The translations under genes were made by a program, and so were the position numbers. From Octopus vulgaris (Eukaryota): a stretch of 64,000 bases of DNA. The notes beneath the pieces are model-generated. The model was not told the DNA's origin, did no database searches, and saw nothing but the letters and a program-made list of their open reading frames with translations. Positions within the stretch are counted from its first letter, which is position 1. Each line of letters opens with the position of its first letter. Shown here in pieces: positions 20,100 through 50,419 of this stretch. The DNA lies in the NCBI GenBank assembly GCA_951406725.2, contig OX597816.1, positions 150,598,001-150,662,000 on the forward strand. Reading direction: 5' to 3'.

Positions 20100-21110
20100 T
20101 ATCCTAATTGTCTCTAATATGATATCCTGCTGCTTTCCTGAACTGGGGACAAATTAAGACACACTGACTGTGAAACCAGAAAGACAATAACCATGTATAG
20201 GTCATTACATCCAAGAGAGAGTGTTGATATGTTATATCTAGCATGAAAGAAGGGAGAGGCTGGATATAGGTGGCAGAACATGAAGAGTATGTGAAAAATG
20301 GCACAGAAAATATGATTTCAGCTGCTAGAGGAGAAGAGAAAGAAGCTGTGAAAATCACAAAAGAAAACAAGAGCAAAAAGAAACATCTTGGGAAAAGGCT
20401 ATAGGATCAGCAAATGCAGGATGTTGCAACAAACAAATCTTGGTTATGGTTGAAGAATGGCAAACTCAAAATAGAAACAGAAGCTCTCATTATGGTTGTT
20501 CAAACTAACGTTTTTAAGGCAAGAATAGACAGAAGCATGGAAAGTGATAAGTGCAGAATGCGTAACAAGAAAGAGTCCTTTGTGCACATAAGATCTTGTA
20601 GTCCTTTGGCACCAAAAGAATATGAATGCAGACATGATTGTGTAGCCAAAGCATTACACTGGAACATATTACCACTACTTGGGTTTGAAGTAAGCAGAAA
20701 ATGGCACCAACACCAATTGGAGAGTGTGACAGAGAATGATTTGTTTAAAGTCTTATAGGACTTTACTGTACAGACTGACCATAAATTTCGGGAAAGACAA
20801 TCAGATATTATCATTCTGGGTAAAAGGTCAAAAGAGTGCATCAATCAAAGATGTGGCTATGTCTTCTGACATGAATTTAGTGGTCAAAGAACAAGAGAAA
20901 ATAGAAAACTTGCAGGACTTGACTATGGAAATGCAAAGACAGGAGAGTTTCTGCAAAAATAATAGTTATAGGCACTCTATGTACCATTACCAACAGATTT
21001 GGTAGTTACCTTATTGGGATCAGTGTAACTATGAGAATTGCATTAATACAAAAAATTGCTGTATTAGGAACAGTGAGGATTGTTCAAAAGGTTCTCAGTA
21101 TCTAAGAGTT
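20100..21110 (+). mobile_element. R4/Dong-like (restriction-like endonuclease) non-LTR retrotransposon 3' fragment
   Basis: SWLWLKNGKLKIETEALIM...DKCRM...HIRSC...EYECRHDCVAKALHW...KWHQHQLESVTEND: CCHC knuckle, RHD motif and a degenerate PD-(D/E)xK region, frameshifted. Confidence 0.85.
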
Positions 21111-25568: not shown

Positions 25569-25606
<38 letters not shown>

Positions 25607-25609
<3 letters not shown>

Positions 25610-26980
25610 GGGAGGGAGAATTCACAAAAAAAACAAAAGATGAAGACAGGTGGTGTAGACAACAAACAGCTGTATTAGTTTAACGCTTGGGAAGTGAAAA
25701 AGTTTTTAACATTTCAAGCCTACACTCTTCCACAGAAAAGAACACAGAAAGAAACAAGAAGAGGAAATAAAGGATGTGTAGTGGCTAGCGATCTATCATG
25801 GCAAATGCTGGACAGAGGGGTCACGCAGGAGAGCTAGGAAGAAGGGGAGATAATAAAGTAGTGGTGATCCTAAAACAAAGGTGCGCGTGCGTGTGTATAA
25901 GAAAGCATGTATGTGTGTTTGGAAGAGGGCTGGTGACCTTGACATATGTGTGTGTGTGCATGTGTAGGTGTGTGGATGATGCTATGGGACTGGGAAGTGG
26001 TCAGTACTAGTATGTGCATGGTGGTGTGATGTGATGTGGTGTTGTGTGGTATTGTGGTGTTGGGATGTGGGGAAGGCGAGTATGGGGAAAGCAAGGGTGG
26101 GGTGTGGGTTAGGCTGAGGGTGGGGTAGAAGTGGAGTATGTGGGAGTGGGTGTAAGGGATGGTGTGGGGGTGAGATGGATGGGAAGGTGGGGTGGAGTTA
26201 CACTGGAGGGGGTGACGATGAAGGGAGAGGGAGAAGTTAAGAGAAGTAGGAGTTGGAGCAAGAGAGGAGAGGGGAGGAGGACTAGATGAAGAGGGAGGAG
26301 AGTTGAGCCCATGTGGTGCAAAGGAGTGAAGAGAGAAGATTAATCCCTGTTCACGGCAAAGACAGGAGTCTGGATGACCCCTGTGCAAGAACAATCCAAA
26401 CACAGACAGGTGTTGCAAAGAGTGACCAGGAGAGTGGAAATGGTGTGAGACCAAGGTGTCATTGCTGAGTCAGATGTCTGGAGGTGTTCCGTGAACCGGT
26501 CAGCCAAACGGCATCTTGTTTGCCCGATGTATAGAGACGGGCAGATAGAGCAGGAGATGCAGTAGATGACATTGGTAGAAGTGCAGGTGAAGGAGTCAGC
26601 AATATGATAGGATTGATGATGAGTGCCAGCGAGGAGGGTGGTGTTGGAGAGGTAAGGGCAAGTGCAGCAGCATGGGCAGGAGCAGAGGAAAGAGCCAGGT
26701 TGGGAGGTTGGGTTAGGGAAGAAACTGTTGACCAAGAGGTCTCATAGGTTGTGGGCTCGTTTGAAGGAGGGGAGGGGTTGGTTAGGGAAGATGTGTGAAG
26801 TGGAGGGGTTGGACTGGAGTTGCTGGACGGCTTGGAGAATGGTGCATTAGAGAGGAAGGGTGGTGGGGAAATGGGAGATGGTGGGGCAAGTGCGGGGGAA
26901 GAGAGCAGATGCATGGTCCACAGAACGTGCTCTTGCAAGGGTGGTGTGGATAGTGGTGAGGGGATATCCATGTAGGATGA
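25607..26980 (-). mobile_element. Penelope-like element 3' portion: GIY-YIG endonuclease and pseudo-LTR
   Basis: ORF 26340-26735 contains CxCxxCxTCPY...FTCTSTNVIYCISCSICPSLYIGQTRCRLADRFTEHL (GIY-YIG with PLE Cys linker). The element ends at a (TA)n tract. Confidence 0.92.
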
Positions 26981-29094
26981 AGTGGCAAGCCATGAGTTGA
27001 GAATATATATGCATGCATATATTTAAACATGTATATATATTAGATGTAAAGATACATAAGTGATTCATCTAGGCATGGAAAAGTAAACATTAAAATGACA
27101 GTAATGATGATGGTGCTCATGATCATGGTGTTTAAGATTTATTGATCTTTCCTTCCTATCGCTTGGTCATGTTGATAACATCACAACCAGATTTTGCCAT
27201 TTCTCTTGGTCTTCTGCTGCCTTCTATGTGTTAACGAAATTGAGGCCTATCCACTCTCGATATTAACCCAGGCAATGACTGATCCAGTATGGGTTCTAGT
27301 CTGATTGTCATCATAATGAATGAACCTTGCGCAAGTTAGCTTGGTAGCACTTATTCCTCACCAAGCATATGTTTTGGCCCCAAACACTAGGCTGTTGGCC
27401 AGGACAGATTCCTCTGCCCTAGCTGGTGAAGCCTTACCTGGAGTCTTTCACTTGCTGTGTTAACACCATCTCTTGCTTGGTTTAACCCACCAGCTGAAGT
27501 TGGGTACCAGGGTGTGGTGCTAGGTGCCATCAAATGAGAGATTAGGAGTTGAATGAGGACCTGTGATACCAGCCCACTTGACCATCCCTGACAAAGTGCA
27601 ACTGCCAGACACCAAAGCTGTTACCTCTGTTCAGAGCCCCCTACACTGATTGTTGATGGTTCAAGCTATCTGAATAGTTTGAGCAGTCTGCAAAACTTCA
27701 AAGTCACTGTCAATAAAATTAGACTCCTCACATGTGTTGAGTTCTTTATTTAGTTAATGTTTATTGTTTTTATGAATTTAAAATGCTTATTTTTAGCTAT
27801 ACATCCACACATACACACATGTGCACACTCGCATGCACACATACACACACACAAATTCATGATCATTATAAAGGGTTATTTTAAATTTGTATAACTTTAG
27901 TTCTATATGTATGGTAGAATTAATCTGTGAACAGGATAAGATAAACCACTTAAACATGCTGTTATAACTGGGGGAACCCATCCAACTATCTCCTTAATAC
28001 AACATTGTTTAGCTAATTCACGGCTATACTGTGCCAAAGTCCAACTGAATAGCAGATTGATACCAAACTCTTACATTACAACCAAGAAATAGCTTCAAGA
28101 CAGGAAACTACTCAGATAGACACTCATTAGTCAACCTGGAATAAAAAGCATTCTGCTATTTTTTCCAGCTACATATGGCTGCCATAATGATAGTAATCTT
28201 AAGATATTATTGCCCACCTTTGATTCTGTGCTCACTTGTAGAGCAACCTCAAATGCCAACTTAGCTTAACAAGTTACCACACTGTTCCAAGATAAAAAAA
28301 AAAAAATGTCCAAATATCTGCTCAAATATTACAAACAAAAAGAGTTAAGTTAATTAACTTAATGAACACAATAAATACCTAGGCAGTAAGCTAGAATTCC
28401 CCACTGATGCACCACTATTGAATCTCTATTCTAACACTTTCATTTCTCTCTTTTCCTTAATTTAACCATTCTCCATTTCTATTCTCATTTACTTTCTCAA
28501 TTTCCTCCACCTTCCAGTTCTCCCCTTCACTCAGCTCATGTCTCTCCACAAGAATAAGACTATACATTTCTCCCCCTACTTATAGTTGTGATTAACCAAT
28601 TTTTTTTTTCAGATCAATTAAAATTGAAGATGAACTGATTTGTTTTTTTTTTTTTTTTTCTTGATGTATTATTGATAATGAATCAGTCATTGTTGAGTAA
28701 AACAGAAGATACCTCATCATATCATGCTTGCAGCTTCATGTTTCTGAGGTCAGATCCAAATTTAGGTTTTTATCTCTTCAGGTACTATTAAAAAGAAATG
28801 TACCATCAAATATGAGGTGTGAATTTTTTTATTTTTTCAAAAGGCAAAATAATCTTTTATTTTATTTAATTATGTGATCTGAAATTACAGTAGTGGTTTA
28901 TGGGCATTCACTCTATCAGTTTTTGCTGCAGGTCTTTGATATTCTTCAAGTAGAATGTGTTATCAAGTGTGCACTTGGCTACCATTTCCTACTTTTTGCT
29001 TAGAATCTTGTACTAAGCTATCACTTCTACACACATGTAGTTCTTTAGATTGTTTTTTAACCATCAGTACCAAGATCATTCTAGAACACTGCAC

Positions 29095-30088: not shown

Positions 30089-30231
30089 TTTACTCTTTAT
30101 TCATATTAGGTTTGATAAGTGCCATACACAAAACTCTTAGGCCTTAATTCACTTATGTAGCTTTAAAACTGACATATATATATGTATATATGTATGTATG
30201 CATATATGTACACATATATTTGTGTGTGTGT

Positions 30232-30660
30232 ATAGAAATAATACCTTTCTAAATCTCTCCGAGAGATTTATACAGTAGCAGCATGATAGAGTGATGGTAT
30301 GTTGTCAACTTAATATGAGTCTCATGAAAGGGAAGAATGCTACTGTTATTTGGCCCTAGGAAATGCCATTTCCTGTTGGCCTTGACACATTTCCTGTGTC
30401 CATATGTTTTCAAAGGCAAATAGGCATCAACAGCTCGCAAGCCATCCTACTCCAGACTGATGATGAGCAATGACTCTGAAATTAGTCTCTGGATGCTGGC
30501 TTTGCTGGGTGGAGGTGCTTATCTCCCCCTTGAAAACATAAGGATACAGGAAATGTGTCAAGGCCAACAGGAAATGGTGTTTCCTAGGGCTAAATAACAG
30601 TAACCTTCTTCCCTTTCATGGGACTATCACGTTAAGTTGACAACATACCATCACTTTATA
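30232..30660 (+). mobile_element. Non-coding fold-back element, probably Penelope pLTR-derived
   Basis: Inverted arms of about 130-140 bp at 30286-30428 and 30514-30659, with a hammerhead-like motif in the loop and microsatellite flanks. Confidence 0.75.
30451..30493 (+). ncRNA. Minimal type I hammerhead ribozyme motif
   Basis: TCCAGA-CTGATGA-tGAGcaatgaCTCt-GAAA-ttag-TC-TCTGGA: 6 bp stem I, intact core, 3 bp stem II, vestigial stem III and a GUC cleavage triplet. Activity is unknown. Confidence 0.72.
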
Positions 30661-30697
30661 TATATTTGTATATATATATATATATATATATAGATAT

Positions 30698-31078
30698 AGG
30701 TGCTGGTAAGAAGCTTGCTTTCTCGCAACATGGTTCCAGATTCAATCCCATTGCATGGTACTTTGGACAAGTGTCTTCTATTATAGCTTCTGCCCAACCC
30801 AAGCCTTATGTGTGGATTTGGTAGGCAAAAACTGAAAGAGGCCTACTGTATATATACATGCGTGTGTGTCTGTGTCTTTCCACCACCACCACTTGATAAT
30901 TGGTGGTGGTCTGTTTTGAATCCCCATAACTTAGTGATTTGGCAAAAGGGACCAATAGATTAAATACCAGGCTTACAAAAAATAAATACTGGGATCAATT
31001 CATTCAACTAAAAATCCTTCAAGACAGTGCCCCAGCATGGCCACTGTCTAATGGCTGAAACAAATAAAAGATAAAAGA
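30698..31078 (+). mobile_element. CORE-like SINE, near full length with (GATAAAA) tail
   Basis: Head homologous to 9905. The 3' end GTGCCCCAGCATGGCCAC...AAATAAAAGATAAAAGA is shared with 45775-46172. Confidence 0.8.
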
Positions 31079-31509
31079 TGTGTGTGTGTAAATAGCCACA
31101 TGAGTTCTTGTTCAAAAATACTACCCTTCTAGATGGGGCGGAAGATCACTTCTTACTCATATGTTCTATTCTTGGCATGTTTTCTATGGCTAGATGCTCT
31201 TAATATCAGCCACTTCACAGAGTGTAATGGGCATATTTTATCATGGTACCAACACTAGGGAAATCCTCATGCCCACAGCCAAACTTAAAAAGTTATTTCA
31301 GTTTTTATATGTCCAAGCTATTATCATCATCATTCTTGATCATTAGGTGTAGACATAGCTGTGTGATTAAGGAGGTTGCTTCACAAACATGACTTTGGGG
31401 TCAACACCTTAGGAAAGTCTCTTACCATAGCCCTTGGTCAACCAATACCTTGTGAGTGAATTTGATAGAAGGAACCTGTGCAGAACCCCATCAATACATG
31501 TGGGCTATT

Positions 31510-31513
<4 letters not shown>

Positions 31514-31599
<86 letters not shown>

Positions 31600-31635
31600 T
31601 AGACAGATAGACAGACAGACAGACATGTGTATACA

Positions 31636-31668
<33 letters not shown>
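31514..31668. repeat. (GATA)n/(GACA)n/(GA)n microsatellite
   Basis: Direct reading. Confidence 0.95.
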
Positions 31669-32407
31669 ACATATCCACAAGCCCATTCAGAAAATCAGTT
31701 TTCTTATTCTCAATCTTTCCACAGATAAAATTGCAAAGATATACACTAAACAAGCAACCTACATAACATGCATGTAATTATTTTTGTATTGTTTTTCAAA
31801 ATTTTAAATCAATTTCTTCAATATTTATTGAAAGTATTCCTGTCCTATCACTCACACACTCATGCATACACAGACACACACTGAACACTTTAAAATGTAA
31901 ATTAATACCTCCTAATATATCTCATGCTTCATTTATTGTTGTTATTTAATCTCCTTATATGCATTACGGCTGGTTTCTACATTGTTCAGCATTATTGTGT
32001 ATAATAATGAAAGCTTTCTTCTTTAATTTTGTTAATTGTTTGCTCTTTGTTTTGGTGTATTTTAGATATTGTTTTTTTTTTCCATGAAGTGCATGGAAAG
32101 AAAGCATATTGCTGCATGATGGTGAGATTAGAGCATTGAATGTAGGAGGTCTTATGAGGCTGTATGTGAGCTAAGAGTACAGCTGATTATCAAAGGCCTC
32201 CACTAATGTGTGTATAAGACATGATTGTGCTAGTATGGATATGTGATGTGAATGGATGATGAAAGTTGGAGGGGGAAATGTCAGCTGCTGACAGTGGCAG
32301 ATATCTTTAGTATCTTTGATAGACTACAAAAGACAAAGCAAGGAAAGTGATAAGGTTTTTAAGGTATTGAATTTTACATGCAAACTGACAAATGATGAAG
32401 ATGAATG

Positions 32408-33870
32408 ACATCATTATCATCATTTTTTAACATTCATTTTCAATGTTAGCACAAGTAGGACAATTCAGCAGGATTTAATGGATCCAATGACTACATCATG
32501 CCACAGTGTCTGCTTTGCCATAGTTTCTACTGGTGGACGCCCTTCCTAATACCAACTACTATACAAAGTGTACTGGATGCTTTTTTTCATGGCACCAGCA
32601 CTAGTGTAGTTACCATGCACTTTACAAGACCAAGATACACTTTAACTGAGTGGAGCTACAGTAGAAAGGGATGTGACTTTATGTGAAGAGATAAGTTAAA
32701 ATATGAAAGGGGCCAAAATAGGTTTCTTGTTGTGGAAGAGCTACATAGTTACGTTATAAAAGAGTAGATGAGAGTAACTGGAGTGGATCTGGAAAGAGAG
32801 AGGAAAAGTGTGATGAAGTGTTAGGAGGAACCCTCAATGTCCAAGATGAGTTGATGTGAATGGGGACAGAATAATAGGGTGTGTAATAGAAGAATAGGTA
32901 GGTATATAACACAAGAGTGTATGATGAGAGAAGGGATACTTAAAGATGGAGAATGAGTAAGGGATGAATATAATGGATGAAGAACAAGACTTGAGAGAGG
33001 GTATGTTGGAGGGAAGATGCAAAAGAGTAGGTGATGACTGTAGAGATTGTGTATGGTTGAAGATTGGCTGTAGTGAATGGTGGTCAAAGGTGAAGAGGTG
33101 ATCAATGATACGTGAGAGATGAAAGATGAGAGAGTGGGTGATGACTGACACTACAGAAGAAGGTGAGGAGAAGCAGAATAGTATTAATAAAATAGTAGAA
33201 AAAAGGAGGACGAGAGAAAAGGAGATGATATGTAGGAAGGTATGTTGCAAGAGTGTTGGGGTAAAGGTAATCATAGTGTATGAGGTGGTGATAGATAAGG
33301 AGAGATAATTTGGTAGCACAAAAGGTGCAAAAGGATACTAAAATGTGAGTGGAGAGGTTGCTTTGTCCCCTGCAAGACAAAAGAGTCTTCATTAATCTAT
33401 GTTGTCTCCATTTGTTCAAGGCACAAACAAGAAAGTGAATAGAAGAGAGAGTGATGACAGAACAGTACACTTGATTTCTTTTGTATCCAGCTTTTCTCTC
33501 TGCTCTCATGCTTCTTGCACACTAATATTACACATGCAGCAGTGCAGCAGAGCATAATCTCTTAATTTCTTTCTATCTTTTTATGAATCTTCTACTTTCA
33601 ATGTCCATGTCTCATTACTATGTAGCATTGCAGGTTACATGCAAGCATCATGCAATCTGTCCTTCCCTCTGTGAGAGAAACCTTTTGCTATTAGCAGAGA
33701 TAGCAGCTTCCTGAACTTTTTTCACTCTGTTCTTAGTCAAGCTTTTGGAACTCCTTCCTCCAATGCTAATTAGGTCTCCTTGATGACAAAAGCTGCCAAC
33801 TACTTCTTGTAGCCATCCAAGCATTTTTGTATGAATTGTTGGACCATGCAGTTTTAGACCAAATTGTCAT
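32408..33870 (-). mobile_element. Old RTE LINE 3' fragment with purine-rich block
   Basis: Degenerate tail at 32408-32620. Region 33480-33860 resembles 4400-4830. Confidence 0.65.
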
Positions 33871-33984
33871 TCTTGCCATCCAGCGCTCTCTCTTCCTCTA
33901 ACTCTCTCTTTCTCTCTGTCTCTCCCTCCCTCTCACTTTCTTTCTTTCTTTCTTATATTCATCATTTTCTAATTGAGAATAGGA

Positions 33985-34528
33985 TCTTTTCTTTACAAAA
34001 TGTAATTACAGACTCCAACAGATTCTCAAAGTTATTCAAGATATTGCTGGTTGGCAGCTACTTCCTTTCTTCAATAAAATTTCTGAACTATCAGAGAATC
34101 CTTGCACTGAAGTGTATAAAATTAAAAATTTCACCGACAGATTTCATAACTTCTTCATACTTAAAGTCTGCCAGATGTTCATGAGGAAAAGAATGCAATG
34201 AACAGGGAGAAACTCTGGACAGCTAGGATCCCTCTTCATAAATGCTGTTAATCATGCATTTTCCCTACCATTGCAGGAGCTCCATTTGTTGCAACACTGA
34301 TAAGTTTATTTAGTGGAGCATCAACATTTAAGGTTCTTTCAAATGCATTTTTAATATCAGCACCATCAGCTGTATCTTTTAATGTTACTAAGTACAACAT
34401 CTCTTCTTTTGCAATTGCATCAAAAGAAATGTAGCAAACAAATACTGCCAGTAGTAGGTCGATTGCCAATAGCAGTATTTCTGTAGATTTGTTTAGAGAA
34501 TTCTTTAATGTTGAATATAAGAGAATCT
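33985..34528 (-). mobile_element. hAT (Charlie/Buster, GTF2IRD2-like) transposase fragment
   Basis: LAVFVCYISFDAIAKEEMLYLVTLKDTADGADIKNAF...LNKLISVATNGAPAMVGK matches the conserved TDGAPAMxG region. Confidence 0.88.
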
Positions 34529-34532
34529 TTAA

Positions 34533-34760
34533 CCCTTTAAACATTCAGATTATTATGTTAAACATAATACTTATTTATTCAAATTGTTTTGTATTAACTA
34601 TGCATTATCTCACAGCATTGAGATTTCGATGATGTAATAGTTTTATTCTTAGAATGACATTGTAGGGTATGTTGGAAAGATTGAATTTAGAAGTTTGAAC
34701 ATAAAACAGGTAGAATATTTTGGTTGGATTTGGCCAGTTTAAAATGTTAAAATGTTAAAG
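34533..34760. mobile_element. TTAA-targeting (piggyBac-type) MITE, right end degraded
   Basis: TTAA|CCCTTTAAACATTCAGATT..., homologous to 52074-52294. Confidence 0.7.
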
Positions 34761-36734
34761 TGTTTTTGCAACATAAGTACTGATCTGGGAGATAAGTATC
34801 TTTGTATGGAGTGAAACTGATGTTTGTGCTATCCAGTCAAAAGAAGTTTTATTCTATGGACTCCAAATACTATAATAACTCAAGCAATATTCTTTTTATC
34901 AAATTTGCCATCAGAATATGGGTGTTTAACCTAAGTAATATTCCATTTCAAAACAAGCTTCACCCATTGCGTAGGCTTCCTTACAGAACAGTATCAGCTG
35001 ACTATTTAGTGATGATTTTTTTTTAACACAGTTAACTTATTTTTTCTCAACCCTGATTCATTTAAGTAGACAAGAATACAAAAGTTTTATGATTTGCTTC
35101 ATTTCAGGTTACTGAGTGACTCAGGGTAGATAAATTTAATATAAAGGTTTACCTCCTTTGACAGTGAATATAAAACCATCCTTCTGCTTTACTTTAAAAT
35201 TTCTGTTCTCATCTTCATAATTTTATTGCTTACAATTTCATGATGCCAGTTTCTTTCACTAAAGTTTCACAGACACTTGTAAACAAAATCTGTGACTGAA
35301 GTGTACCAATTAGGTTCATAGCCACTAGGCTCAGTCATACATGTAATTTACAGCAAATCAAAGTACTTTCATATTTCACTATTTTATACTTTTGATCTTT
35401 TGAAGTAATTTTTCTATTTATTTATATCAATCCTTTCATAAATGTTTAGACATTATTTGAATAATTTTTTTATCATTTCTATTTTTCTTTGAAATATTTA
35501 ACAAAAATATGAGTGGGAGAGTAGGTTACAATTTATTTACCATTTGTTTAAGGGAGCTTTAACTGCTATGAGCAAACATATATATATGCTCTGTTGGTGG
35601 TGGTGGTGTTGGTAGTGGTCTTCTTGTGTGACTCCAGATCAGCCCTTTTCAGGCAAACTTCTGATCAAAGTTGTTCATTCCATGACCATCCTGACTTTTT
35701 CATAAGTGCAAGGAACTCAAGTTCACATTATCCAACAATTTCTTTTTCAAGAAATTTGAGGAAAATTTATAAAAAATTTTTTTAGCAAGTTTAACTATCT
35801 TGTAGATCTCTTATTAGTTCATACAAGCTCTATGGTTGTAATTTACTTGACAAGCTGAAACAGAAATGTAAAAAGAAAATTATGAAAAGCAAAATTTTCC
35901 AAAAGCAAAACTACTACATGTGGTGCGTAATGATTAATGTTAAATATAAATTTAAAATTCTAACTCCCTATAGCAGTTTTAACATAGCAAACCTGCTGAA
36001 TAGTTTGTTAGATTTATTTTTTCTTTTATATTGAACCAGAAGAACTGAAATTTAATATTAAATTTGAGATAGAATTTAGCCCCTGTAGCAATTTTAGTGT
36101 AACAAAACTGAATTAAAGAATACTTTTTTAATGTTTTGTATTACACTGTATTTATGTATATGACGTGAAGTTAAGTCTAGCCTAGATTGATTAAGTTACC
36201 TGAAACCAGTCCCTCTTCTTAGGTGCTCCCAAATCTTTACCACCATTCCCCACCCATCACATCAGTCCTCTGATATTTCACTGTAACCCTTGCTGACCTG
36301 ATTTTTAAAAGGTTTCTCTGCCTCTATCAAGAAAAATTCTTTCCATCAGCGGTACTAGCTGTTACTCACAAGTGAGTGTGACTTTGTAATGAGTACCATG
36401 CTTATGCTAATTCTTTTAGTGCCTATGTAGGTGCTGACATAGACACCTTCTTGCTTCTTTCACCCTTGAGCCAGGATGTGACAGCTGGAAGGAGAGAGGG
36501 CTGCACCAGCTGAATAGACTGGAGCAATATAAAATAATGTGCCTTGCTCAAAAACACAATATGCTGCCTGCTCCACAAATTGAACCAATGAACATAAGAT
36601 CATGAGGTCAGAACCCTAAGCATTATGTCACATGTCCTCTGTGCTGAAGAGCAAAATGTCACTGGGATCTAACACTGAAATTAGGATTTAAATTTCTGAA
36701 ATATTTTTTGTAACTATGAATATTAAACTTAATC

Positions 36735-37020
36735 CTATGTTGGCATGAGTTCAATAGTTTGACAGAATTCAGTGGGTCAATGTTTGTTTTGGTATGGTTT
36801 CTGGATGCCTTTCCTAAGCCAAACCACTTTACAGAGTGTACTGGGTACTTTTTTCATGGTACCAGCACTAGTGAGGCCACTATGCAGCTTGCAAGACTAA
36901 GATCCTCTTCGGATGAGTGGGACTACAGTAGAGAAAGAGATGGTTTTATACTAAGAGATGATAAGTCAAAGTATGAAGAAGAACAGAACAGGTTTCTTGC
37001 TGTAGAGGAGCTGCATTATA
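36735..37020 (-). mobile_element. Degenerate RTE 3' tail
   Basis: CTGGATGCCTTTCCTAAGCCAAACCACTTTACAGAGTGTACTGG matches 3590-3640. Confidence 0.7.
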
Positions 37021-38025
37021 GAAAATTGGATGGGAGTAACTGGAATATACCCAGTAAATAATTATAATGCTTGAATATTTTTTTTTTATTTGCCAGGATA
37101 AAAAAAACAACAGACGCTCAATCAACTTATTTTTCACAAGACATACATTGTCTAAGAGGTACTTGTAGCTCATTTACTACATTTTTGACCAACCTGTAAC
37201 AGTCAGAACATGATGCAACAACTTGGTTTGGCATTTTGTTCTTGTTTTAAGTGGTGGCTGCAACAGAAACGGACAAGATAGAATTAATTTCTATTTAATT
37301 TTTTACCACTGAAACATGAAACCCTTACAAGCTTTTGCATTTCAGTTCTATTTATATATATATATATATATATAATGGGTTTCTGTGCAGTTTTCAACTC
37401 CCATTTTTTTTTTACAAGCTATTAGCTACTCATGTACAAAGTCCCAATATATTAGTTATGAGGTTAAGGTGACCATAACCATAACCTAATAATAAATGTA
37501 CATAGATTGATTGTTCAATTTATATTTTGGTATTGATTGTTCAATGCAGTTTCTAGTACTATCTCAGACAACTGTGCACAGAATTTGAAGCTAAAATCAC
37601 TAGTTATTATTTAACCCCAAGCCAGACTTGATTCAACAGAGCTATGATTAAGGGCATTTCAGCCATGACCATCCCATCTTTTTTGTATTTTGTATTTCTT
37701 GGACTATTGTGTCTTTTGTTTTTAAGATGGCAGGATGTTATTGAAAGGGGTAATTCAGCTGCTATTTCTAGCAGGTTGAGGAACTATGTAAATGATTTCT
37801 TATGAGATTTGTCCCTCTTTGTATCAGGATTAGCAGTATTTTTTAAATGTTTTTGAAATACCATGCTGTTAAGTTATTGATGATTAGCAAAATGTCAGCT
37901 CTGATGAAGTACACCTCTGATCACAATTCTTTTTCTGTTTGTTAAAGAAGTCATTATTCAGTGTCTCCATTTGCTTTTAAGCTGGTTAAGGTGTGATTTG
38001 AGAAAGATTTGACTGTAGAGTTTAA

Positions 38026-38244
38026 CCCTTTCGTTACTGTATTTCTGTTGAGATGCTCTGTGTTTCTTCCAATTACTTTAAGTATAACAAAGAATTTAGT
38101 AAAATAACTTTGTTATCATTCAGCTATTGTTAGGAATATAAATTGTGACTAAGATTGGTGGAAGATTTTAATTCAAAACTTATGAAGACAAGACATTTGT
38201 ATTCAAAGCCAGAGCCGGTTTCAGCCGGGTTGGTAATGAAAGGG
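38026..38244. mobile_element. piggyBac-type MITE, second family
   Basis: TTAA|CCCTTTCGTTAC...GTAATGAAAGGG|TTAA: terminal inverted repeats and TTAA duplication. Confidence 0.85.
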
Positions 38245-38379
38245 TTAAATATATGTGGATAATTTGACATGTAATGGTAAAAAATTGTTTAGGTTGTAGT
38301 GGGTGACAACTGTTATATGTGCGCCCTCTCATATCTAGATGGTCTTTCATTAATTTCACTTTCTTTGTAATAACAGTTG

Positions 38380-39870
38380 CCAACTTCCTTAAGGCTGTTC
38401 ACCCTAGGTGTCATTCATGAAATCATTAGCAAATTTTTTGCCCTCCTTTAAGACAGAACAAAGTTTCTTATGCCTCTAGTAACTTTTAATGAATTTTAGC
38501 ATCCAGTCGTCAGTTGTTTCATGATATTTGGCCAGTTCAAATATGGTGATTTTGTAAAAAAGTTCGAACTGGATCAAGCCTTGCCCTCCTTGTGCACTGG
38601 AAAGATAAAGACGATTCATGTCTGCCTTTGGGTGCTGCATATTTTTACAAGCCAGTAGCTTACAAATTTTTTTTATCAATTTTCTTTGTTTCACTGATAT
38701 TCCTATTCAACACATTGAAGCTATAAGTAACAACTGGAACTGCTAAGGAATTTATGGCTAACGCCTTGTTATGTACATTTAGCTCAGATTTCAGAACTGC
38801 CTGAACTCTCCTGTAATGAATTTTATAGAAGAGTTCTCTTTCATTCTTACCTGCTGAATGCCAAAGCATTCATTTAATTCTAGGTATTTATAAGTTTATT
38901 CCTGCTCAAGTTCTTTTATAATTATGTCAACATTTGCCGGGTCTTCGGATGGTGACTAGTCTTGCACCATCCGAAGACCCGGCAAGACTAGTCAGGCCAT
39001 AACCCGTGGCCCCTACCTGGGACGTAGTCAGTCCACCTGTGCATACCTTCCTTCTTGTGACACTTGTGAAGACCTGTTGAGGCAAGTGAAAATCAAAACA
39101 AATCAAAATAGATGAACATCAATGGAATTTGTATCTTTGTGGTACCAGTGCTGGTGGCACACAAGAAAATCATCCGAACGTGGCCGTAGCCAGTACCGCA
39201 TAGACTGGCCTCCGTGCTTTGGACCGTCTGCCACCCACTACACTCTCGGAGTGGTTGGCGTTAGGAAGGGCATCCAGCTGTAGAAACACTGCCAGATCTG
39301 ACTGGCCTGGTGCAGCCTTCGGGTGCCCCAGACCCCAGTTGAACCGTCCAACCCATGCTAGCATGGAAAACGGACGCTAAATGATGATGATGATGATGAT
39401 GATAACATGACTAAATTTGAAGTTTTCAGTTTCTCTTTCTGGATAGTGGCCCTGGCTCACTTATCATGACCAAACTCCATCTCAGTGTTATCACTGAATG
39501 CTTTCACAGTACATAATAGGCCCGCAAGCTCATAATTGTCTTTTACTATAGAGTTTTTAAGTCATTCACATAAAATAGATGGACTATTATTGTTGTCAAT
39601 TTTATACCCATACCCTGTTCTGCTAAGTTCACTTGTAAGGGGTATTAGAGCTGAGCAAAAAATTAGAAATGAAAGTGAGTCACCTTAGAAAATTCCACAT
39701 TTGATGATAATATTGTTTGAAGCTAGTATTCTATTATAATGATATTATTGGAGACACATATTCCACAATGACATGCTATGCTTCAGAAAGTTTAAAATCA
39801 CATGAGAAATTTTGAAGATGTCTAGCAATTTCAGGATCCGTGAATGCAGTATGCTGTCAAAGGCCTTTAT
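38380..39870 (-). mobile_element. R4/Dong-like RT fragment interrupted by a young RTE insertion
   Basis: YRRVQAVLKSELNVHNKALAINSLAVPVVTYSF and HPKADMNRLYLSSAQGGQGL motifs. Degenerate RT core at 39410-39870. Confidence 0.85.
38934..39402 (+). mobile_element. Young 5'-truncated RTE 3' UTR insertion
   Basis: CpG-rich, ends CCCATGCTAGCATGGAAAACGGACGCTAAAT(GAT)n. Possible short TSD AACAT. Confidence 0.88.
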
Positions 39871-40612
39871 TATTATTGTTTCTTTTTATCTCGGGTTTTG
39901 TTGTAACTCCTGGAGTCTTGCATGCATGATGTCTTCTGTTACTGTCCCCAAGGAACCAACAATAATTGACACTAACTTCACCATTATTATCATTATATCA
40001 TCTCTGTATCACAGGTCTTGTTGGAGCTCCTGGAGTCTTGCATGCATAGCGGGCTTACTACCTGCAGTCTACAGTACCATGCTATTCATTATTTTCAGCT
40101 ACCTTTCTGGTTATTCTAGCCGTGCCAAGGAGACAAACCTTTTGTAACAGTTCTACTGGGCACTCTATTCCAATTTTCCTTATATTCCTCTTGATGCCTT
40201 TTGATACTGTTCCCAAGGACCCAACAATAATTGACATTATCTTCGCCTTCATTTTCCATAGCTGGCTATTTCATACTTAAGAGGACATGTATCTCTCTAT
40301 CTTTTTGCCTTCCTTCTTCACTATTCATAGGTCAAAAGGGCATGCAATGTCAACTATATAGTACATGTAGTGTACCTTGTCTACCACTACTAGGTCCAAT
40401 CTGTTATGCTCTAGCACCTGACTTGTTTGGATTGGGAAATCCCAGAAGATTTTACTAGTCTCCGACACTGCTACTCTCTGTGGTTTGTGCTCATACCACA
40501 TCTTGCCTCTCTCTAGCCCCCCACTTTTCACTGTTTCCAATGTAGCACTTTCACTACCTGATTGTGTTGCCACAACTTGCAATGGTTTGGGGCAAGTCTA
40601 GGGCATTCATTC
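39870..40612 (-). mobile_element. R4/Dong-like endonuclease-domain fragment
   Basis: KMWYEHKPQRVAVSETSKIFWDFPIQTSQVLEHNRLDLVVVDK...IVDIACPFD is the RLE signature. Confidence 0.88.
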
Positions 40613-40800
40613 ATAATTATCACTATTATTCTTATTATTATTATTCCGGACAATAGGCATAAGTTAAAATAATAAGATAAGAACAGTAATAAATGAGTGA
40701 AGAAAAAATATATAGTGCGTGTGTTTATTTGGCAGAAAAAAGTAAATAAAATAAAATGACCATCCCGAAATACAACAACAACATTATTATCATTATTATT

Positions 40801-41012
40801 GGCCGTTGCCAGCCTCGCCTGGCACCTGTGCAGGTGGCACATAAAAAGCACCCACTACACTCATGGAGTGGTTGGCGTTAGGAAGGGCATCCAGTTGTAG
40901 AAACACTGCCAGATCAGACTGGAGCCTGGTGCAGCCTTCTGGCTTCCCAGATCCCCAGTCGAACCGTCCAACCCATGCTAGCATGGAGAACGGACGTTAA
41001 ACGATGATGATG
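40801..41012 (+). mobile_element. Young RTE 3' tail insertion
   Basis: Near-identical to 39230-39400 and to the reverse complement of 1910-2125. (GAT)n tail. Confidence 0.9.
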
Positions 41013-41052
41013 ATTATTATTATTATTATCATTATTATTATTATCATCATCA

Positions 41053-41132
<80 letters not shown>

Positions 41133-41140
41133 TTTATTAT
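41011..41140. repeat. (ATT)n microsatellite abutting the exon B acceptor
   Basis: Direct reading. Confidence 0.95.
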
Positions 41141-41150
41141 ATTTTTTCAG

Positions 41151-41214
41151 CAATATACGGAATTTGGTTCTATGACAAAGATGATTGTGCTCGTGTGGGA
41201 CAGCTGATAAATAG
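41151..41214 (+). CDS. DCP1: DCP1 internal exon B (end of EVH1 domain)
   Basis: ttttttcag|CAA...ATAG|gtaaga, 64 nt. The phase 1 start is compatible with exon A. Translates (A)IYGIWFYDKDDCARVGQLIN(S), containing the IWFYD signature of Dcp1. Confidence 0.97.
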
Positions 41215-41628
41215 GTAAGAAAGATATTTCATGTATCTAATTTCAAGATCACTGTTTGTATGAAAATTATACAACTAAATGTAACAATTCTATTTCATTA
41301 CCAGTTCTGAGTAAGTCAGAAATGAAAAACAAACAGGTTTTATTCTGGGAAGTTTAGATTTCTGAATATAAAAGGATGAAACAATATGTTTTAAGGTATT
41401 TAGTCTAGCACTATACCATTTCAACCAATTCACTGACCTCTCATGTAATAACATTAATTATATTTATTAAATAAATACTAAATTAGCTTTTTATTTTGCA
41501 CCATAAACTAAAACTTATTGCTTTTCCTTCCTTTCTTCTCTCTCTCTCTCTCCCCCACTTTAAGTAGTATATATCAATATCTATCTGTCTATTTACCTAT
41601 CTATCTATTTATCTAATCTACGTATGCA

Positions 41629-41669
<41 letters not shown>

Positions 41670-41672
<3 letters not shown>

Positions 41673-42125
41673 AGAATATAAGGATAAAAATCACGTTGAT
41701 GATTTTTATCAAGTAGTCAGCATGCTATAAAAATTTATAGACAATACATTAGATTAATAATAATGTGCATATTTATGTAATTATATCAAGAGAGATCAGG
41801 CAAAAACAAACCTTTCTCCAGCATGCTTTGAGTGCCAATGCCTTCAAAAACTACCAAAATCTCCAGCTCAATCCAAATAACTGTATGTACAATTATTTGG
41901 ACTTATATTCCCCTATCCATGTATTGTGTTGACGAAGGAAAAAAGCTATTTTTTGCTTTAATCCAGAAATTGGAACCAATTCACAATTAATGTGAGCTCT
42001 TTTTAATTTTCTCTCACTAGCCTGATTTCAGCCACGTGTATATTTTAGCTGGAATTTTCGGTAGTTTTTGAAGGTATCGACATTTCAAGCATGCTGGAGT
42101 AAGGTTGTTTTCGCCCAATCTCCCT

Positions 42126-42132
<7 letters not shown>
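41670..42132 (+). mobile_element. Second non-coding fold-back element, probably Penelope pLTR-derived
   Basis: Inverted arms of about 87 bp at 41782-41868 and 42047-42132. Hammerhead-like fold in the spacer. Flanked by (TG)n and (TA)n. Confidence 0.72.
41923..41987 (+). ncRNA. Variant type I hammerhead-like motif
   Basis: ATTGTG-TTGACGA-aGGA..AAAGC..GCTTT..TCCa-GAAA-TTGGaaCCAA-TT-CACAAT: all three stems form, but the core has C3 replaced by U. Confidence 0.58.
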
Positions 42133-42162: not shown

Positions 42163-42172
<10 letters not shown>

Positions 42173-42328
42173 TAAATTAGAGACAAAACCACTATTATGC
42201 AAATCAAACAAAGAAAGACGTAAGCCAATACATAAAATAATTTATATAAATTATTTTATGTATTGGCTTAAGTCTTTCTTTGTTTGATTTGCATAATAGT
42301 GGTTTTGTCTCTAATTTAATATAATATA
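42163..42328. repeat. 166 bp near-perfect palindrome
   Basis: Centre TTTATATAAA (42241-42250), no spacer, one mismatch (GACGTAAG versus CTTAAGTC). Confidence 0.93.
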
Positions 42329-42398
42329 ATATTTTACTATAAAATTGGATTCAATCCTAAATCTGATTTTTCCCTGTAAATTTGGATTTATTCCCTAA

Positions 42399-42427
<29 letters not shown>

Positions 42428-43271: not shown

Positions 43272-43848
43272 CCCTTTAACATTCACATTATTCTGTCAAA
43301 AGTAATGCTTATTTATTCTCATTGTTTTGAATTAATCTTTCATTATCTTGTAGCGTTGAAATTTTGAAGAGGTAATTGTTAACTTCAGAATGATACTAGA
43401 CTGCCCATGACCAATTAGGTCACCTGGAAAGTCTGAGTTTCCCAGCAACGAAATTTTGTTTCATGGGGTTTTTTTATCTCTTTCGCATGCTTTCAATGAA
43501 TGTAACATCAAAATCATGGATAAACAACTCCTTTCTCCAGAAAAGGAAAGATTTGGCTACTATTTCTTGCATACCCTGATACCACATAACAGGTATTTCA
43601 GGTCCTTTATCACAAATAGCAGTTACATGGTAGCAGGGTGTGCTAGAAATAGCAGCCAAATCTTTGGAGCTGAGATACGTTGAATGCACTCCAAAAAAGG
43701 TTTGTAATGGTATTCCATTAGAGTGATCTTTCACTTTGACTCTCACAACTGTCATCCAGATGAGCTGGTTTTGTTCGTCAACTTCCATCAATAATTTTTA
43801 TTTATTTACTTTTGTTTTAAAGTGAAAGTTGTATGAAAGTGTGTGTGT

Positions 43849-43880: not shown

Positions 43881-44752
43881 CACTTACACATACATGAGAA
43901 CTCTCTCTCTCCCACACATGCACACGTACATACAAAAAATATGTACTCATATGTATTGATGTATGTACGTATACATGACAACACACCCCCTTCACTCTCT
44001 CTCTCTTCTCTCTCTCTCTCTTCCTCTTTCTTTCTCTCTCTCTTTCTCTCTCTCTCTTTCTCTCTCTCTCTTCTCTCTCTCTTCCTCTCTCTTTCTCTTT
44101 CACACACACACAGCCATTTCATATACACGTACATACATCTTTTACTTTCTCCTCTCTTTCACTTTAAAACAAAAGTAAATTAATTAAAAAAATTTTACAG
44201 AAATTAATAGCTTGAAAATAATTTTAAAAAAACATTAAAATATTGTCTGTTTAAAGAAAGTTAAAATATAAATACTTACTGTTCAAACAACTTACATTTT
44301 TTAAATTACATTCAGGCAAAAATATTTCTAAATGAGTAAAATATTGTGTACGTCAAAAAGTCGATGTTCTTTTTTTTTAGAGAGTGCTATGTGTGTGTAT
44401 ATGTCCCAGATAGTGGACGTGTGTTTGTGTTGATTGACTGCCATGACATTCATTATATGTGTGTATATGTATGTGTGTTGATGTCACAGAAGCCACGTTT
44501 TTTTTTTTCTTTTTGTCAAGAAATAACAAACAAAAATGTGTACTGCACTGCTGAAGGTAAGTATGAAAACAAATATGCAAAAAAAAAGATAAAATATACT
44601 ATTTCTGAGATATTTTGGGTACAAACAAACATCTCTAGAGTTTTAGCATTATTCAGATTGTAAAGTTGGTGTGAGAGGCCACCATATGGCCAGTTTGAAT
44701 ATAAAATAGGTCTAATATTTTGGCTGGATATAGCCAGTTTAAATGCTAATGG
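43272..44752. mobile_element. TTAA MITE split in two (43272-43400 and 44660-44752) by about 1.25 kb of other sequence
   Basis: The left half TTAACCCTTTAACATTC...AGAATGATA and the right half GGTGTGAGAGGC...AATGCTAATGGGTTAA together reproduce the 52074-52294 element. Confidence 0.65.
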
Positions 44753-47205: not shown

Positions 47206-48892
47206 TGAGAAATACACAAAAGATGAGAAATATAGAAATGATTGTTTTTATCATGTTGGTGATGATCGTTGGTGTTTTTGTTGTTGTTGTGGTGGTGGTA
47301 CTGCTGCTGCTTCTGACAGTGGCAGTGGTGGCACTAGTGGCAGCAGCAGTGGTGGCGAAACAATGACAGTGAAGATGTCTGAACAAATCCTGTCTATAAA
47401 TGGCTGAAAGTGATTACATATATAATGTCTAAATGTGAAACTATCCTGAGTTATAATTAAATTTACCCACTTGTCTACAGTCTTATCACCTGTCTATCTA
47501 TCTAACACCACTACCATCACCATCAACCACAACCTCACAGATTCCAGCCTCCACCCTCTTGACACAACTTCTGTTCTAGAACTCTCCAACACTTCTAAAG
47601 GAATATTTTTTTCTTGTTACTCAATACAGAAATAAATTAAATGCAGTTTCATGGCTGACTGTTCACTTGTAAACTTTTTACTTTACTCTATATTTTGAAT
47701 GACTTTTCCTTTATTATTTTTTCTTTTTTCTTCTAGTTTTTTATTATTATTATTGTCTAGGAAGAGGTTCCTTTTTTATGTTATCTGTTTGATCATAATT
47801 GTTAGTCTAAGAAGTGCCCATAGCTCTTTTAGATTTATTAAAACAATTGTATATGTAAGACACATTTGGACGTTTCTACAGTATTCTGTATCCTATAAAC
47901 TAGCTTATTGTTGGTGTCTGTGGCAAAGACCATTCAAGTCTCAGTAGATCTTAACTGTTAACCACACAGTATTTCAGGTTGCTTCACTACAGTGGGAACA
48001 CTATCAAATAACCTACTGTTTTATTAGCTTGCTGTGTTGATCTTAACTTCTTTGGGTATAGCTGTGTGAGTTTTCAGCAGTACTCTGACACCACCAACAT
48101 ATAATAGAACTCATGCGATTAATGTATAGAATTAAAGGAGTAAAATTAGTACGAATAATATTCAATTTGCAGTATTGATAGTTATTTGGTTATTGAATGG
48201 AAGGTCAGAAAATGTATAGAGGGATGTAATCTAGGAAGATTAAAGGAAATATGTAGATAAGAAGGATCAGAAGATGAAATGGGTACAGCAAGTTGATAAT
48301 ATTCCACTGAACTATCTGTTTCATTCATAGTATTTGTTGATAAAACTGTAGGGGACATGGTGTTAGTGGTGGTTGTACATTTTGTAGTGGCTAAAATAGT
48401 GGTGGTTCTGCTATAAGGGCTTAGTAATAATAATTATGACAGTTATGATGTTCAGCATTACAACAGCAGTAATTCTGTTTCTTTTGTTGTTGGTGACATT
48501 GGCATCTGTGGCATGTAGTGGTTTTGGCGACAGTTACTATTTGTATCTTGTTAGTTGAATGCTGTTAGCTTTCAATCTCACCATGGAAGTAACTTAGAAG
48601 AAGAATGAGCCAAAAAATATTAATCTTTCAAAACCACATGGATCTATAGAGTCAGTACTTGGTTCTAGCTTTCAAAGCATTAATCAGATGAAAGATAAAT
48701 CTCCAGCCAGTTAGAAGACTGGTTGAATACAGTTAGCTTACCCTCAGTTGGTGGTATTGAACTCAGTACTAAAAGCTAATGAAATACTGGTGCTACTAAC
48801 TGTCGTTATAATTCCTATTAAGAAGTAGATGTCTTGGGTATGGAGTCATTAAAGGAAATATGTAGATAAGAAGGATCAGAAGATGAAATGGG

Positions 48893-50139
48893 TACACACA
48901 CACTGTCTTGCAACACGAAATATCTCAAGCCTTTGGTCCTCATGGCACAGAACAATGGCAAATTTTTTCTTATCTGCTTCCCCTCTGGCTAAATAAACCT
49001 GTCTCCTAGCTTCCTTTCTGGCAGTCTGATACAATTCCCTGCTACCACCATTCTTCCAGTGCTTCCAAGCCTGTTTCTTTTCTCTTGGTTGAGAGGGAAC
49101 TTTGCACCATCTACAGATCTGGTCAGTGGCTCTCAGCAGGTTGTCCCGTAGAAACCTCCAGTGGTCTTCCACATCATGTGATGCTATATTCCCTTCTATT
49201 TCGTCAAAGGCTTCGAGTAATACATCTCTAAATCTCTGTCCATTTGCAGGATCTTTAAGCTTCCAGACCCTTCTCCTCTATGCTGGTCTTCTTCTGGGCA
49301 TCCATTTAGTCCTGATTCTGAAGTCGCTAACTACTAGCCTATGTTGTGGGGTACATTCTTCACCTGGGAAGGTTTTGGCATTTATAAGCAGCCATCTTTC
49401 CCTTTTTCTGGCAAGGATGTAGTCAGTTTGGCTAGTGTGTCTGCCAGAATGGTAGGTGACTAGGTGACTGGCAGGTTTCCTGAAGTTAGTATTGCAAACT
49501 CCAGCAGCCTGGTACCCTCCTCATTAAGGGAACCAAAACCATAGCCTCCATTTATGCCATGGAAGGCCCCTGCATGTTGTCCAACATGTCCACTAAAGTC
49601 ACCAGTCACAAAGAGAAGGTCCCTGTCATTTGTCAATGAGGCAGTCTGCAAGAGGGTGTCATAAAATCGGTCTTTCTGTCCATCAGGTATCCCGGCTGAG
49701 GGGCATAGGCCGAGATAACGGTTGCTAATCCATGATGTAGCACTAATCTTTTCTTAAGTATTCTATCGCATACTCTGAGTACCTCAATTACCTTATCAAC
49801 TCATTTCTCCATAAGAAGTATGCCCACGCCCCTGACCCCATCAGTGTTCTCTGCCCAGAAAATCTTGTACCTGTGTTCTTTGCCTGTGAGGAACCTAGCG
49901 GAACCTCCTCTCCACCTTACTTCTTGGAGGCAGTACAAATCTACACATTTCCATTCAAGCATCTCAACAATCTCACCAGACCTACCTTTCAGTGTGCCCA
50001 CGTTGAGTGTGCCAACTCTGAGGGTATGGTAGGTGTGGGCCCATAAGACTCTGGGATGGTGGACAGCAGCATCATGTACCTGAAAAGAAAGCTCACATTT
50101 GGCAGAATTCATAAACAAACAATTGCCTTCAACCTGCAT
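48893..50139 (-). mobile_element. RTE LINE 5' portion (AP endonuclease), 3'-truncated pseudogene
   Basis: LRVGTLNVGTLKGRSGEIVEMLE...LQEVRWRG, AYAPQ, GDFSGHVG and NEEGTRLLEFA motifs, with stops and frameshifts. Confidence 0.93.
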
Positions 50140-50419
50140 ACACTACACCATCATTTTTATGCAATATATGATCACTACCTTACATAGGATATAAACCCTA
50201 AGTAGGGGTGGGGATGGCGTTAAGCCTTTAGAAGTGTTCATGGGAGACAACCAAAGGAGGACAGAGGATACAGACTTCCGGTACAGGTGGAGAGGGTGAG
50301 AGGGCGAGTGTACCATGAGATAGCAAAATTAGATGAGAGTATCTTGTGGGTTCATATTCTTTTGGGGGTAGTTATTAAAATGGAGAAGGGGAATCTGAGT
50401 GCATGCGCTAGTTTATATA

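What the first reader, a model, noticed from the sequence alone, without database searches (positions are those of the whole stretch)
30232..42132. Two unrelated fold-back elements share one hammerhead-in-loop architecture
Seen: the elements at 30232-30660 and 41670-42132 have no obvious arm similarity, yet both read in the same order. (TG/TA)n, then a small hairpin (AAATCTCtccGAGAGATTT or AAAAATCAcgttgaTGATTTTT), then AGTAG(T)CAGCATG, a long left arm, a type I hammerhead fold, the inverted right arm and (TA)n. Both hammerheads have a mismatch at the base of stem II (U-U and A-A). Known: Penelope pseudo-LTRs carry minimal hammerheads and often form inverted 5' copies, and non-autonomous ribozyme retroelements (retrozymes) exist. 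Inference: this may be a family of non-autonomous, microsatellite-targeting, hairpin-shaped ribozyme retroelements mobilised by Penelope RT/GIY-YIG.
Basis: partly seen in the sequence, partly recalled or inferred. Interest (0 to 1): 0.8.

Follow-up and report, generated by a model that had tools for sequence, protein, structure and literature searches.

The report
Penelope-type inverted stubs sharing tail signal
Two short DNA hairpins in TA/TG repeats each carry a hammerhead-ribozyme-shaped motif in the loop and share a 55-base end module; they are likely stump-sized insertions of Penelope-like jumping genes whose mirror half was probably built on landing, and the shared module is likely the signal where copying starts.

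Summary
Both fold-backs are real (folding z = -24.6 and -12.5). They hold the only two strict type I hammerhead hits in 64 kb (0 in 20 resampled windows). Their 54/55-nt end modules align better than 5000 of 5000 shuffles, while their bodies are unrelated. The layout (one arm flush with (TA)n, a shorter inverted arm, an extension at one end only, hammerhead in the direct copy) is the published insertion structure of Penelope-like elements (PLEs): inverted pseudo-LTR plus 'tail'. In the same window a GIY-YIG-bearing PLE remnant also ends hammerhead, ~100 nt, (TA)n, and a third asymmetric fold-back has no hammerhead. Arm mismatches show no RNA-pairing bias (11 G:T, 11 A:C). Best reading (0.62): ORF-less PLE-type stubs whose inverted arm was made at insertion by two-sided priming. 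A fixed hairpin family that moves as a unit is not excluded (0.25), because no other copies could be examined. What I did not find in print is the conserved tail module, a candidate reverse-transcription start signal.

The parts
30232..30286 (-). E1 extension ('cap' on +); likely PLE-type tail when read on the minus strand: conserved motif, hairpin, ~18 AT-rich nt, then microsatellite
   Evidence: tail role inferred
30250..30270 (.). E1 small hairpin, 9-bp stem, 3-nt loop
30274..30285 (.). E1 copy of the shared motif (AGTAGCAGCATG on +)
30287..30416 (-). E1 inverted arm (130 nt), 11 mismatches in 127 paired columns against the right arm
30417..30456 (+). E1 5' strand of an imperfect extended stem I (26 of 40 columns Watson-Crick, against 119 of 135 in the outer arm); likely the native 5' end of the direct copy
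30451..30493 (+). E1 minimal type I hammerhead motif; predicted cut after 30487; near-palindromic short stem III
30531..30659 (+). E1 right arm, flush with (TA)n
41670..41772 (-). E2 extension (~103 nt; inner edge fuzzy by a few nt): 48 extra AT-rich nt, then the same 55-nt module
41683..41710 (.). E2 small hairpin, 11-bp stem, 6-nt loop
41712..41724 (.). E2 copy of the shared motif (AGTAGTCAGCATG on +)
41773..41871 (-). E2 inverted arm (~99 nt), ~81% complementary to the right arm
41872..41901 (.). E2 30-nt palindrome exactly at the inversion junction
41923..41987 (+). E2 type I hammerhead motif (U3 variant, UU site, 5-bp stem III); predicted cut after 41981
42044..42132 (+). E2 right arm, flush with (TA)n
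42168..42406 (+). E3: adjacent fold-back (42168-42323, 98.7%, no loop, no hammerhead) with an ~83-nt extension at one end, between two (TA)n tracts; same geometry, different sequence
25605..27008 (-). PLE remnant used as in-window comparison: Cys-rich motif plus GIY-YIG (26340-26741), long 3' region, decayed minimal hammerhead (25735-25708), 103 nt, (TA)n

Best explanation
E1 and E2 are two fold-backs with a hammerhead-shaped motif in the loop and a shared 55-nt end module, and they are likely ORF-less stubs of two distantly related Penelope-type elements whose inverted arm was probably made at the moment of insertion rather than inherited. Inferred mechanism: a PLE RT/GIY-YIG protein cuts both strands in a (TA)n/(TG)n tract. 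Each free 3' end primes reverse transcription at one of two internal start sites on the element RNA. The right end starts at the near site and copies arm, hammerhead and stem up to about the RNA's 5' end (direct copy, 244 and 261 nt). The left end starts at the far site and copies tail and arm (inverted copy, 130 and 99 nt plus tail). The two cDNAs join where they can pair: the native extended stem I in E1, a junction palindrome in E2. The hammerhead thus lands in the loop because it lies 40-57 nt from the 5' end of the copied RNA, not because the hairpin works as a unit. The conserved motif-plus-hairpin module is the likely protein-binding or start signal. The source RNA may be an autonomous PLE (about two thirds of this reading) or a PLE-dependent non-coding unit of ~300-360 nt (about one third). 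Shown: the anatomy. Inferred: parentage, priming, joining, role of the module. Cleavage untested.
For: Published PLE structure matches part for part: direct pLTR of ~190-220 bp, adjacent shorter inverted pLTR, tail at the end of one inverted pLTR, palindromes at the junction (PMC3846280 passages); inverted 5'-truncated copy, tail at one end, (TA)n bias (PMC8557442 passages). A purified PLE protein cuts and extends both strands, starts at two adjacent internal sites in a stem-loop, the tail is the sequence between them, and hammerhead cleavage is not needed (PMC11167929). Both motifs have the extra base between positions 9 and 10.1 and the G10.1-C11.1 pair listed for PLE hammerheads (PMC4209133). 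The window's RT/GIY-YIG-related remnant ends hammerhead, 103 nt, (TA)n; E1 and E2 end hammerhead, 173 and 151 nt, (TA)n. Of 7 local fold-backs in the window, 3 (E1, E2, E3) have one arm within 3 nt of a microsatellite and the other 56-119 nt from one; the other 4 lie over 170 nt from any. E3 has the same geometry with no loop and no hammerhead. Arm mismatches are strand-symmetric, G:T 11 vs A:C 11 (E1 7:2, p 0.09; E2 4:9), as expected for arms that were perfect on arrival and decayed as DNA. E1's inverted arm continues its imperfect inner stem without a gap, with a step from 119/135 to 26/40; E2 has a 30-nt palindrome exactly at the junction.
Against: No sequence link of E1 or E2 to any RT/GIY-YIG element was found: no similarity to the window's remnant (192 and 177 of 300 shuffles as good), no tblastn hit of 30 PLE-related proteins on them, and E1's one 55-codon open frame found no PLE protein (one search's 15 hits carry no PLE domain, 11 are WG-repeat proteins). 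The extensions are 55 and ~103 nt, not the published 30-40 nt. In two published PLEs the ORF runs through pLTR and tail, and no frame is open in both arms here. Both direct copies stop close before the core (2 of 2), which a fixed master would also give. E3's link to PLEs is inferred from geometry only, and its extension does not resemble the shared module (1344 and 1235 of 2000 shuffles as good). The G:T/A:C test has little power (22 transitions) and cannot exclude a young master with perfect arms.
Confidence: 0.62

Rival explanations
1. One reading: E1 and E2 are copies of two fixed, non-autonomous hairpin families, transcribed as whole fold-backs and moved in trans by PLE RT/GIY-YIG; the shared module recruits the protein and a poorly cleaving hammerhead lets full-length RNA survive.
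For: The module is conserved at a fixed offset (54/55 nt) in otherwise unrelated elements. Both junctions fall close before the hammerhead. E1 is one continuous rod up to the ribozyme. No parent or coding trace was found. pLTR sequences suffice for mobilisation in trans in a rotifer case, and non-autonomous PLE derivatives exist.
Against: No G:U bias in the arms (11 vs 11). The RNA strand that carries the hammerhead lacks the tail in sense orientation after its right arm, and the strand that carries the tail has the hammerhead antisense, so one transcript cannot use both. In the in vitro PLE system RNA beyond the start sites was required, and a copy ending at the tail lacks it. E3 shows the same geometry without loop or hammerhead. 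The known insertion process explains the shape without a master.
Confidence: 0.25
2. Non-autonomous Helitron2/HINE-like or other single-strand DNA elements, read on the minus strand: 5' terminal inverted repeat, subterminal partner, 3' hairpin, with a captured hammerhead.
For: The topology (asymmetric inverted repeat plus hairpin near one end) resembles Helitron2 termini (PMC5148889 passages).
Against: Arms are 99-130 nt against ~12 bp in the described case. Flanks are TA/TG repeats, not T-runs. There is no 3' CTRR. It needs two independent captures of the same hammerhead variant in the same place.
Confidence: 0.07
3. The two elements are unrelated fold-backs and the shared module and hammerhead shapes are coincidence.
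For: The features were picked after the fact; Rfam hammerhead models do not score either loop; the local alignment is only modestly above chance (20 of 2000).
Against: Global alignment 0 of 5000; reciprocal best among 103 controls; the only two strict hammerhead hits both sit in fold-back loops with the same stem II variant.
Confidence: 0.03

Closest known systems
Insertion structure of endonuclease-bearing Penelope-like elements: inverted pseudo-LTR plus tail (Arkhipova et al. 2013, PMC3846280; Craig et al. 2021, PMC8557442; passages read)
   Same: Direct repeat-sized copy with hammerhead, shorter head-to-head inverted copy, extension at one end only, junction palindrome (E2), AT-rich/(TA)n target.
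   Different: No ORF or second direct pLTR here; extensions of 55 and ~103 nt rather than 30-40; no parent element identified.
PAc (Poseidon of Anolis) internal RT initiation (Frangieh et al. 2024, PMC11167929; main text read)
   Same: Two-strand cutting and extension, two internal start sites in a stem-loop and a dispensable hammerhead would give exactly this shape.
   Different: There the ORF starts in hammerhead stem II and the start lies in an AC-rich stem-loop; here no frame is open in both arms and the module is a motif plus an AT-rich hairpin 13-18 nt from the end.
Minimal type I hammerheads of metazoan PLEs (Cervera and de la Pena 2014, PMC4209133; results and discussion read)
   Same: Extra base between 9 and 10.1, G10.1-C11.1 pair, short near-palindromic stem III in E1.
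   Different: A second unpaired base between 11.1 and G12 in both; E2 has U3, a UU site and a 5-bp stem III; Rfam models do not score them.
Animal non-LTR retrozymes (Cervera and de la Pena 2020, PMC7229834, passages; Li et al. 2026, 10.64898/2026.07.22.740005, abstract to discussion read)
   Same: Non-coding, type I hammerhead, PLE-related; direct copy plus tail (~300 and ~360 nt) is in the monomer size range.
   Different: Defined as tandem direct repeats with a hammerhead per unit; E1 and E2 are single-hammerhead inverted structures.
Helitron2/Helentron/HINE termini (PMC5148889, passages)
   Same: Asymmetric inverted repeat with a hairpin near one end.
   Different: Short repeats, T-rich targets, no ribozyme, DNA intermediate.

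Membership tests
EN+ Penelope-like element insertion | Sequence continuity with, or homology to, an element encoding PLE RT and GIY-YIG | tested here: inconclusive
   No link to the window's remnant or to 30 PLE-related proteins; no genome held for a full test
EN+ Penelope-like element insertion | Type I hammerhead with extra base 9/10.1 and G10.1-C11.1 pair in the terminal repeat | tested here: met
   feature list
EN+ Penelope-like element insertion | Palindromic stem III/loop 3 | tested here: inconclusive
   E1 is one transition from a palindrome; E2 has a 5-bp stem instead
EN+ Penelope-like element insertion | Shorter inverted copy head-to-head with the direct copy, both outer ends being the same element end | tested here: met
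EN+ Penelope-like element insertion | Extension (tail) at one end only | tested here: met
EN+ Penelope-like element insertion | Typical tail length 30-40 nt | tested here: not met
   55 and ~103 nt; so filed as working like a PLE insertion, membership not proven
EN+ Penelope-like element insertion | AT-rich or (TA)n target | tested here: met
EN+ Penelope-like element insertion | Target-site duplication; variable inversion points across copies | not testable with these tools
   flanks are microsatellites; no second copy in the window; no genome or read data
Non-LTR retrozyme | Tandem direct repeats, hammerhead in each unit | tested here: not met
   one hammerhead per element, no direct repeat of either
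Non-LTR retrozyme | Unit-length circular RNA, self-cleavage | not testable with these tools
   no RNA data were laid
   no genome; 6 of 6 metagenome motif hits were unrelated
   11 G:T vs 11 A:C; low power
Rfam hammerhead families | Covariance-model match | tested here: not met
   none at E<=1 in the window or E<=10 in the loops
Helitron2/HINE | Short asymmetric terminal inverted repeat, terminal hairpin, T-rich target | tested here: not met
   topology alike, but arms 99-130 nt and TA/TG flanks
MITE with TA target | Inverted repeats at both termini | tested here: not met
   one arm lies 55 or ~103 nt inside the end

The most novel reading that the evidence does not exclude
E1 and E2 are members of a class of non-coding, microsatellite-targeting hairpin retroelements that move as fixed fold-backs on Penelope machinery, with a hammerhead at the tip of the rod and a conserved 55-nt motif-plus-hairpin module that recruits the reverse transcriptase across otherwise unrelated families.
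Probability: 0.25. Interest if true: 0.7.

Novelty: new variant of a known kind. Interest (0 to 1): 0.35.

Why it matters
On the likely reading these are ordinary by-products of Penelope-type insertion, and such stubs can be mistaken for MITEs or new ribozyme elements. The one point of specialist value is the end module: a motif and a hairpin whose stem letters differ but still pair, held at the same distance from the insertion end in two families whose bodies no longer align. How PLE reverse transcriptase picks its internal start sites is open (one in vitro system, PMC11167929), and this gives a concrete candidate signal to mutate. If the fixed-family reading were true, it would add a third way, besides plant LTR retrozymes and tandem animal retrozymes, for a ribozyme-bearing non-coding RNA to spread.

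Tried and rejected
No whole genome is held for this window, and no read or contig data were obtained on either element, so copy number, fixed ends, empty sites and expression stay open. The run search listed 24 runs, 20 holding part of 30150-40100, and no RNA holder listed; this is no evidence on expression. A degenerate pattern for the shared module found 6 stretches in metagenome contigs; none of the 6 had the preceding hairpin, a microsatellite or similarity beyond the motif, so all were taken as chance. The remnant's GIY-YIG found no relative in viral contigs. E1's 55-codon frame at 30252-30416(-): no hit among 1 candidate; 15 weak hits in the representative library, 11 WG-repeat proteins, 2 with other non-PLE domains, 2 with none; rejected. 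The idea that the arms were selected or A-to-I edited as an RNA duplex was tested and not supported. Rfam hits were microsatellite/miRNA-like or weak snoRNA matches below gathering score. The simple-repeat filters were faulty (masked 53% of the window and both hid E1's arms); the survey was redone (6.8% masked) and only that is used. Look-ups of earlier findings by sequence, place and most word sets were empty. A Pol III promoter reading of the cap was dropped by eye (no A/B-box fit; consensus recalled, no call). Paper searches showed no report of this module or of a fixed hammerhead-in-loop family; the library lacks most subscription papers and Repbase/Dfam entries, and no supplements were read.
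Full report
1. Observation. Both elements are where and as described. E1 (30232-30660) folds into one rod, -257 kcal/mol, z -24.6; E2 (41670-42132) gives -155.3, z -12.5; none of 100 shuffles folded as well in either case. A strict type I hammerhead descriptor found 2 hits in 64 kb on both strands, one in each loop, and none in 20 resampled windows; it was written after seeing the motifs. A relaxed version found 3 hits (these two and one at 25735-25708, minus strand) against 3 in total over 15 resamples. Both loop motifs have an unpaired base on each side of a G-C pair at the base of stem II. Rfam models do not score them, and E2's motif is a U3/UU variant that does not form in the full-length minimum-energy ensemble, though stem I forms locally. 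The end modules are related: the motif ends 54 and 55 nt from the edge, global alignment beats 5000 of 5000 shuffles, and each is the other's best match among 103 microsatellite-flush 55-mers. Their hairpin stems differ in letters but still pair. The bodies are not alignable.

2. Anatomy. On the plus strand E1 is extension 55 nt, inverted arm 130 nt, direct copy 244 nt (40 nt, hammerhead core, 173 nt), (TA)n. E2 is extension ~103 nt, inverted arm ~99 nt, direct copy 261 nt (57 nt, core, 151 nt), (TA)n. So both outer ends are the same end of the repeat, one with an extension and one without. In E1 pairing steps down from 119 of 135 columns in the outer arm to 26 of 40 in the inner part, which I read as the ribozyme's own extended stem I. 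In E2 a 30-nt palindrome sits exactly at the junction. Arm mismatches are 11 of 127 and 18 of 95 paired columns; among transitions G:T and A:C are 11 and 11, so there is no sign that the arms were selected or edited as RNA (low power, and E1 alone leans to G:T, 7:2, p 0.09).

3. Surroundings. The window holds a PLE remnant at 25605-27008 (minus): a Cys-rich motif and GIY-YIG (Pfam E 0.002, below the curated cut-off), with 30 protein relatives at E<=0.001, many carrying RT domains, and tblastn back-hits only at this locus. A Cys-rich motif upstream of GIY-YIG is described for Neptune/Nematis and Naiad elements. The remnant ends with a decayed minimal hammerhead, 103 nt, then (TA)n, the same right-hand geometry as E1 and E2, but with no sequence similarity to them and no inverted partner found upstream. 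Of 7 local fold-backs in the window, 3 have one arm flush with a microsatellite and an extension on the other side: E1, E2 and E3 (42168-42406), the last with no loop and no hammerhead. E3's extension does not resemble the shared module. No second copy of E1, E2 or E3 lies in the window. The repeats look cephalopod-like to me; that is recalled and untested. A recent octopus repeat annotation has no mention of hammerheads or ribozymes in its main text (PMC13282606, term search and passages).

4. Mechanism. The published 'typical' PLE insertion has a direct pseudo-LTR, an adjacent shorter inverted pseudo-LTR, a tail at the end of one inverted copy, and palindromes at the junction (PMC3846280, passages; PMC8557442, passages). 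In vitro, a PLE protein cuts AT-rich DNA and extends both strands, starting at two adjacent internal RNA sites in a stem-loop, with the tail between them; hammerhead cleavage is dispensable (PMC11167929, parts 1-2 of 4). From this I infer two-sided priming: one target end copies from the near start through the hammerhead to about the RNA's 5' end, the other copies from the far start through tail and arm, and the two cDNAs join at the native stem (E1) or palindrome (E2). Its conservation then marks a likely cis signal. The hammerhead features match those listed for PLEs (PMC4209133, parts 1-2 of 4), with one added unpaired base. All steps beyond the anatomy are inferred. Confidence 0.62.

5. 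Against it, and rivals. No parent was found; tails are longer than the published 30-40 nt; no reading frame is open through both arms, and E1's single 55-codon frame has no PLE relative. Both junctions lie just before the hammerhead, as a fixed master would also give. Its difficulty is that the hammerhead and the sense tail lie on opposite strands. A Helitron2-like reading shares topology only (PMC5148889, passages): 0.07. Coincidence: 0.03. They are not retrozymes as defined, i.e. tandem units (PMC7229834, passages; 10.64898/2026.07.22.740005, parts 1-3 of 5), although the source RNA could be such a unit.

6. Limits. No genome is held and no read or contig data were obtained, so the copy-level test that both readings name was not run. 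The metagenome scan gave 6 unrelated hits. Earlier notes of this scan on other genomes describe similar mini Penelope palindromes; they are unchecked AI notes, seen after my reading was recorded, and are not counted as support. Seven paper searches showed no report of the module; supplements and repeat databases were not seen and may hold these families.

7. Verdict. Real feature; works like a known PLE insertion structure; membership not proven; the long, conserved tail module is the variant. Interest 0.35; novel case probability 0.25, interest 0.7.

Noticed in passing
window 42168-42406: Near-perfect (98.7%) loopless fold-back with an ~83-nt one-sided extension, between (TA)n tracts, directly beside E2; same geometry as E1/E2 without a hammerhead, possibly from a ribozyme-less PLE clade (guess).
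   Followed up: partly
window 25605-27008 (-): 5'-truncated PLE remnant with Cys-rich motif, GIY-YIG, long pyrimidine-rich 3' region, decayed minimal hammerhead and (TA)n end.
   Followed up: partly
window 57270-57941: Element with ~215-nt terminal inverted repeats (85%) and TA at the ends; the middle looks like a mariner transposase N-terminal remnant (recalled, not tested).
   Followed up: no
window 38934-38985: 52-nt palindrome (90%) directly before a GC-rich stretch that looks like a LINE 5' end (recalled, not tested).
   Followed up: no
window 43547-43665 and 4671-4725: Two smaller fold-backs (77% and 87%) far from microsatellites; unexplained.
   Followed up: no
window 43795-43828 and 44156-44189: 34-nt inverted repeat (94%) enclosing nested (GA)n/(TC)n and (TA/CA)n tracts in mirror order.
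   Followed up: no
window 20405-20758 (+), 48876-50142 (-): Broken frames that read like LINE reverse-transcriptase/endonuclease pieces (by eye).
   Followed up: no
window 1908-2119, 10144-10313, 39232-39403, 40806-41026 and others: A dispersed ~170-210-nt repeat present several times at 72-90% identity, SINE-like.
   Followed up: no
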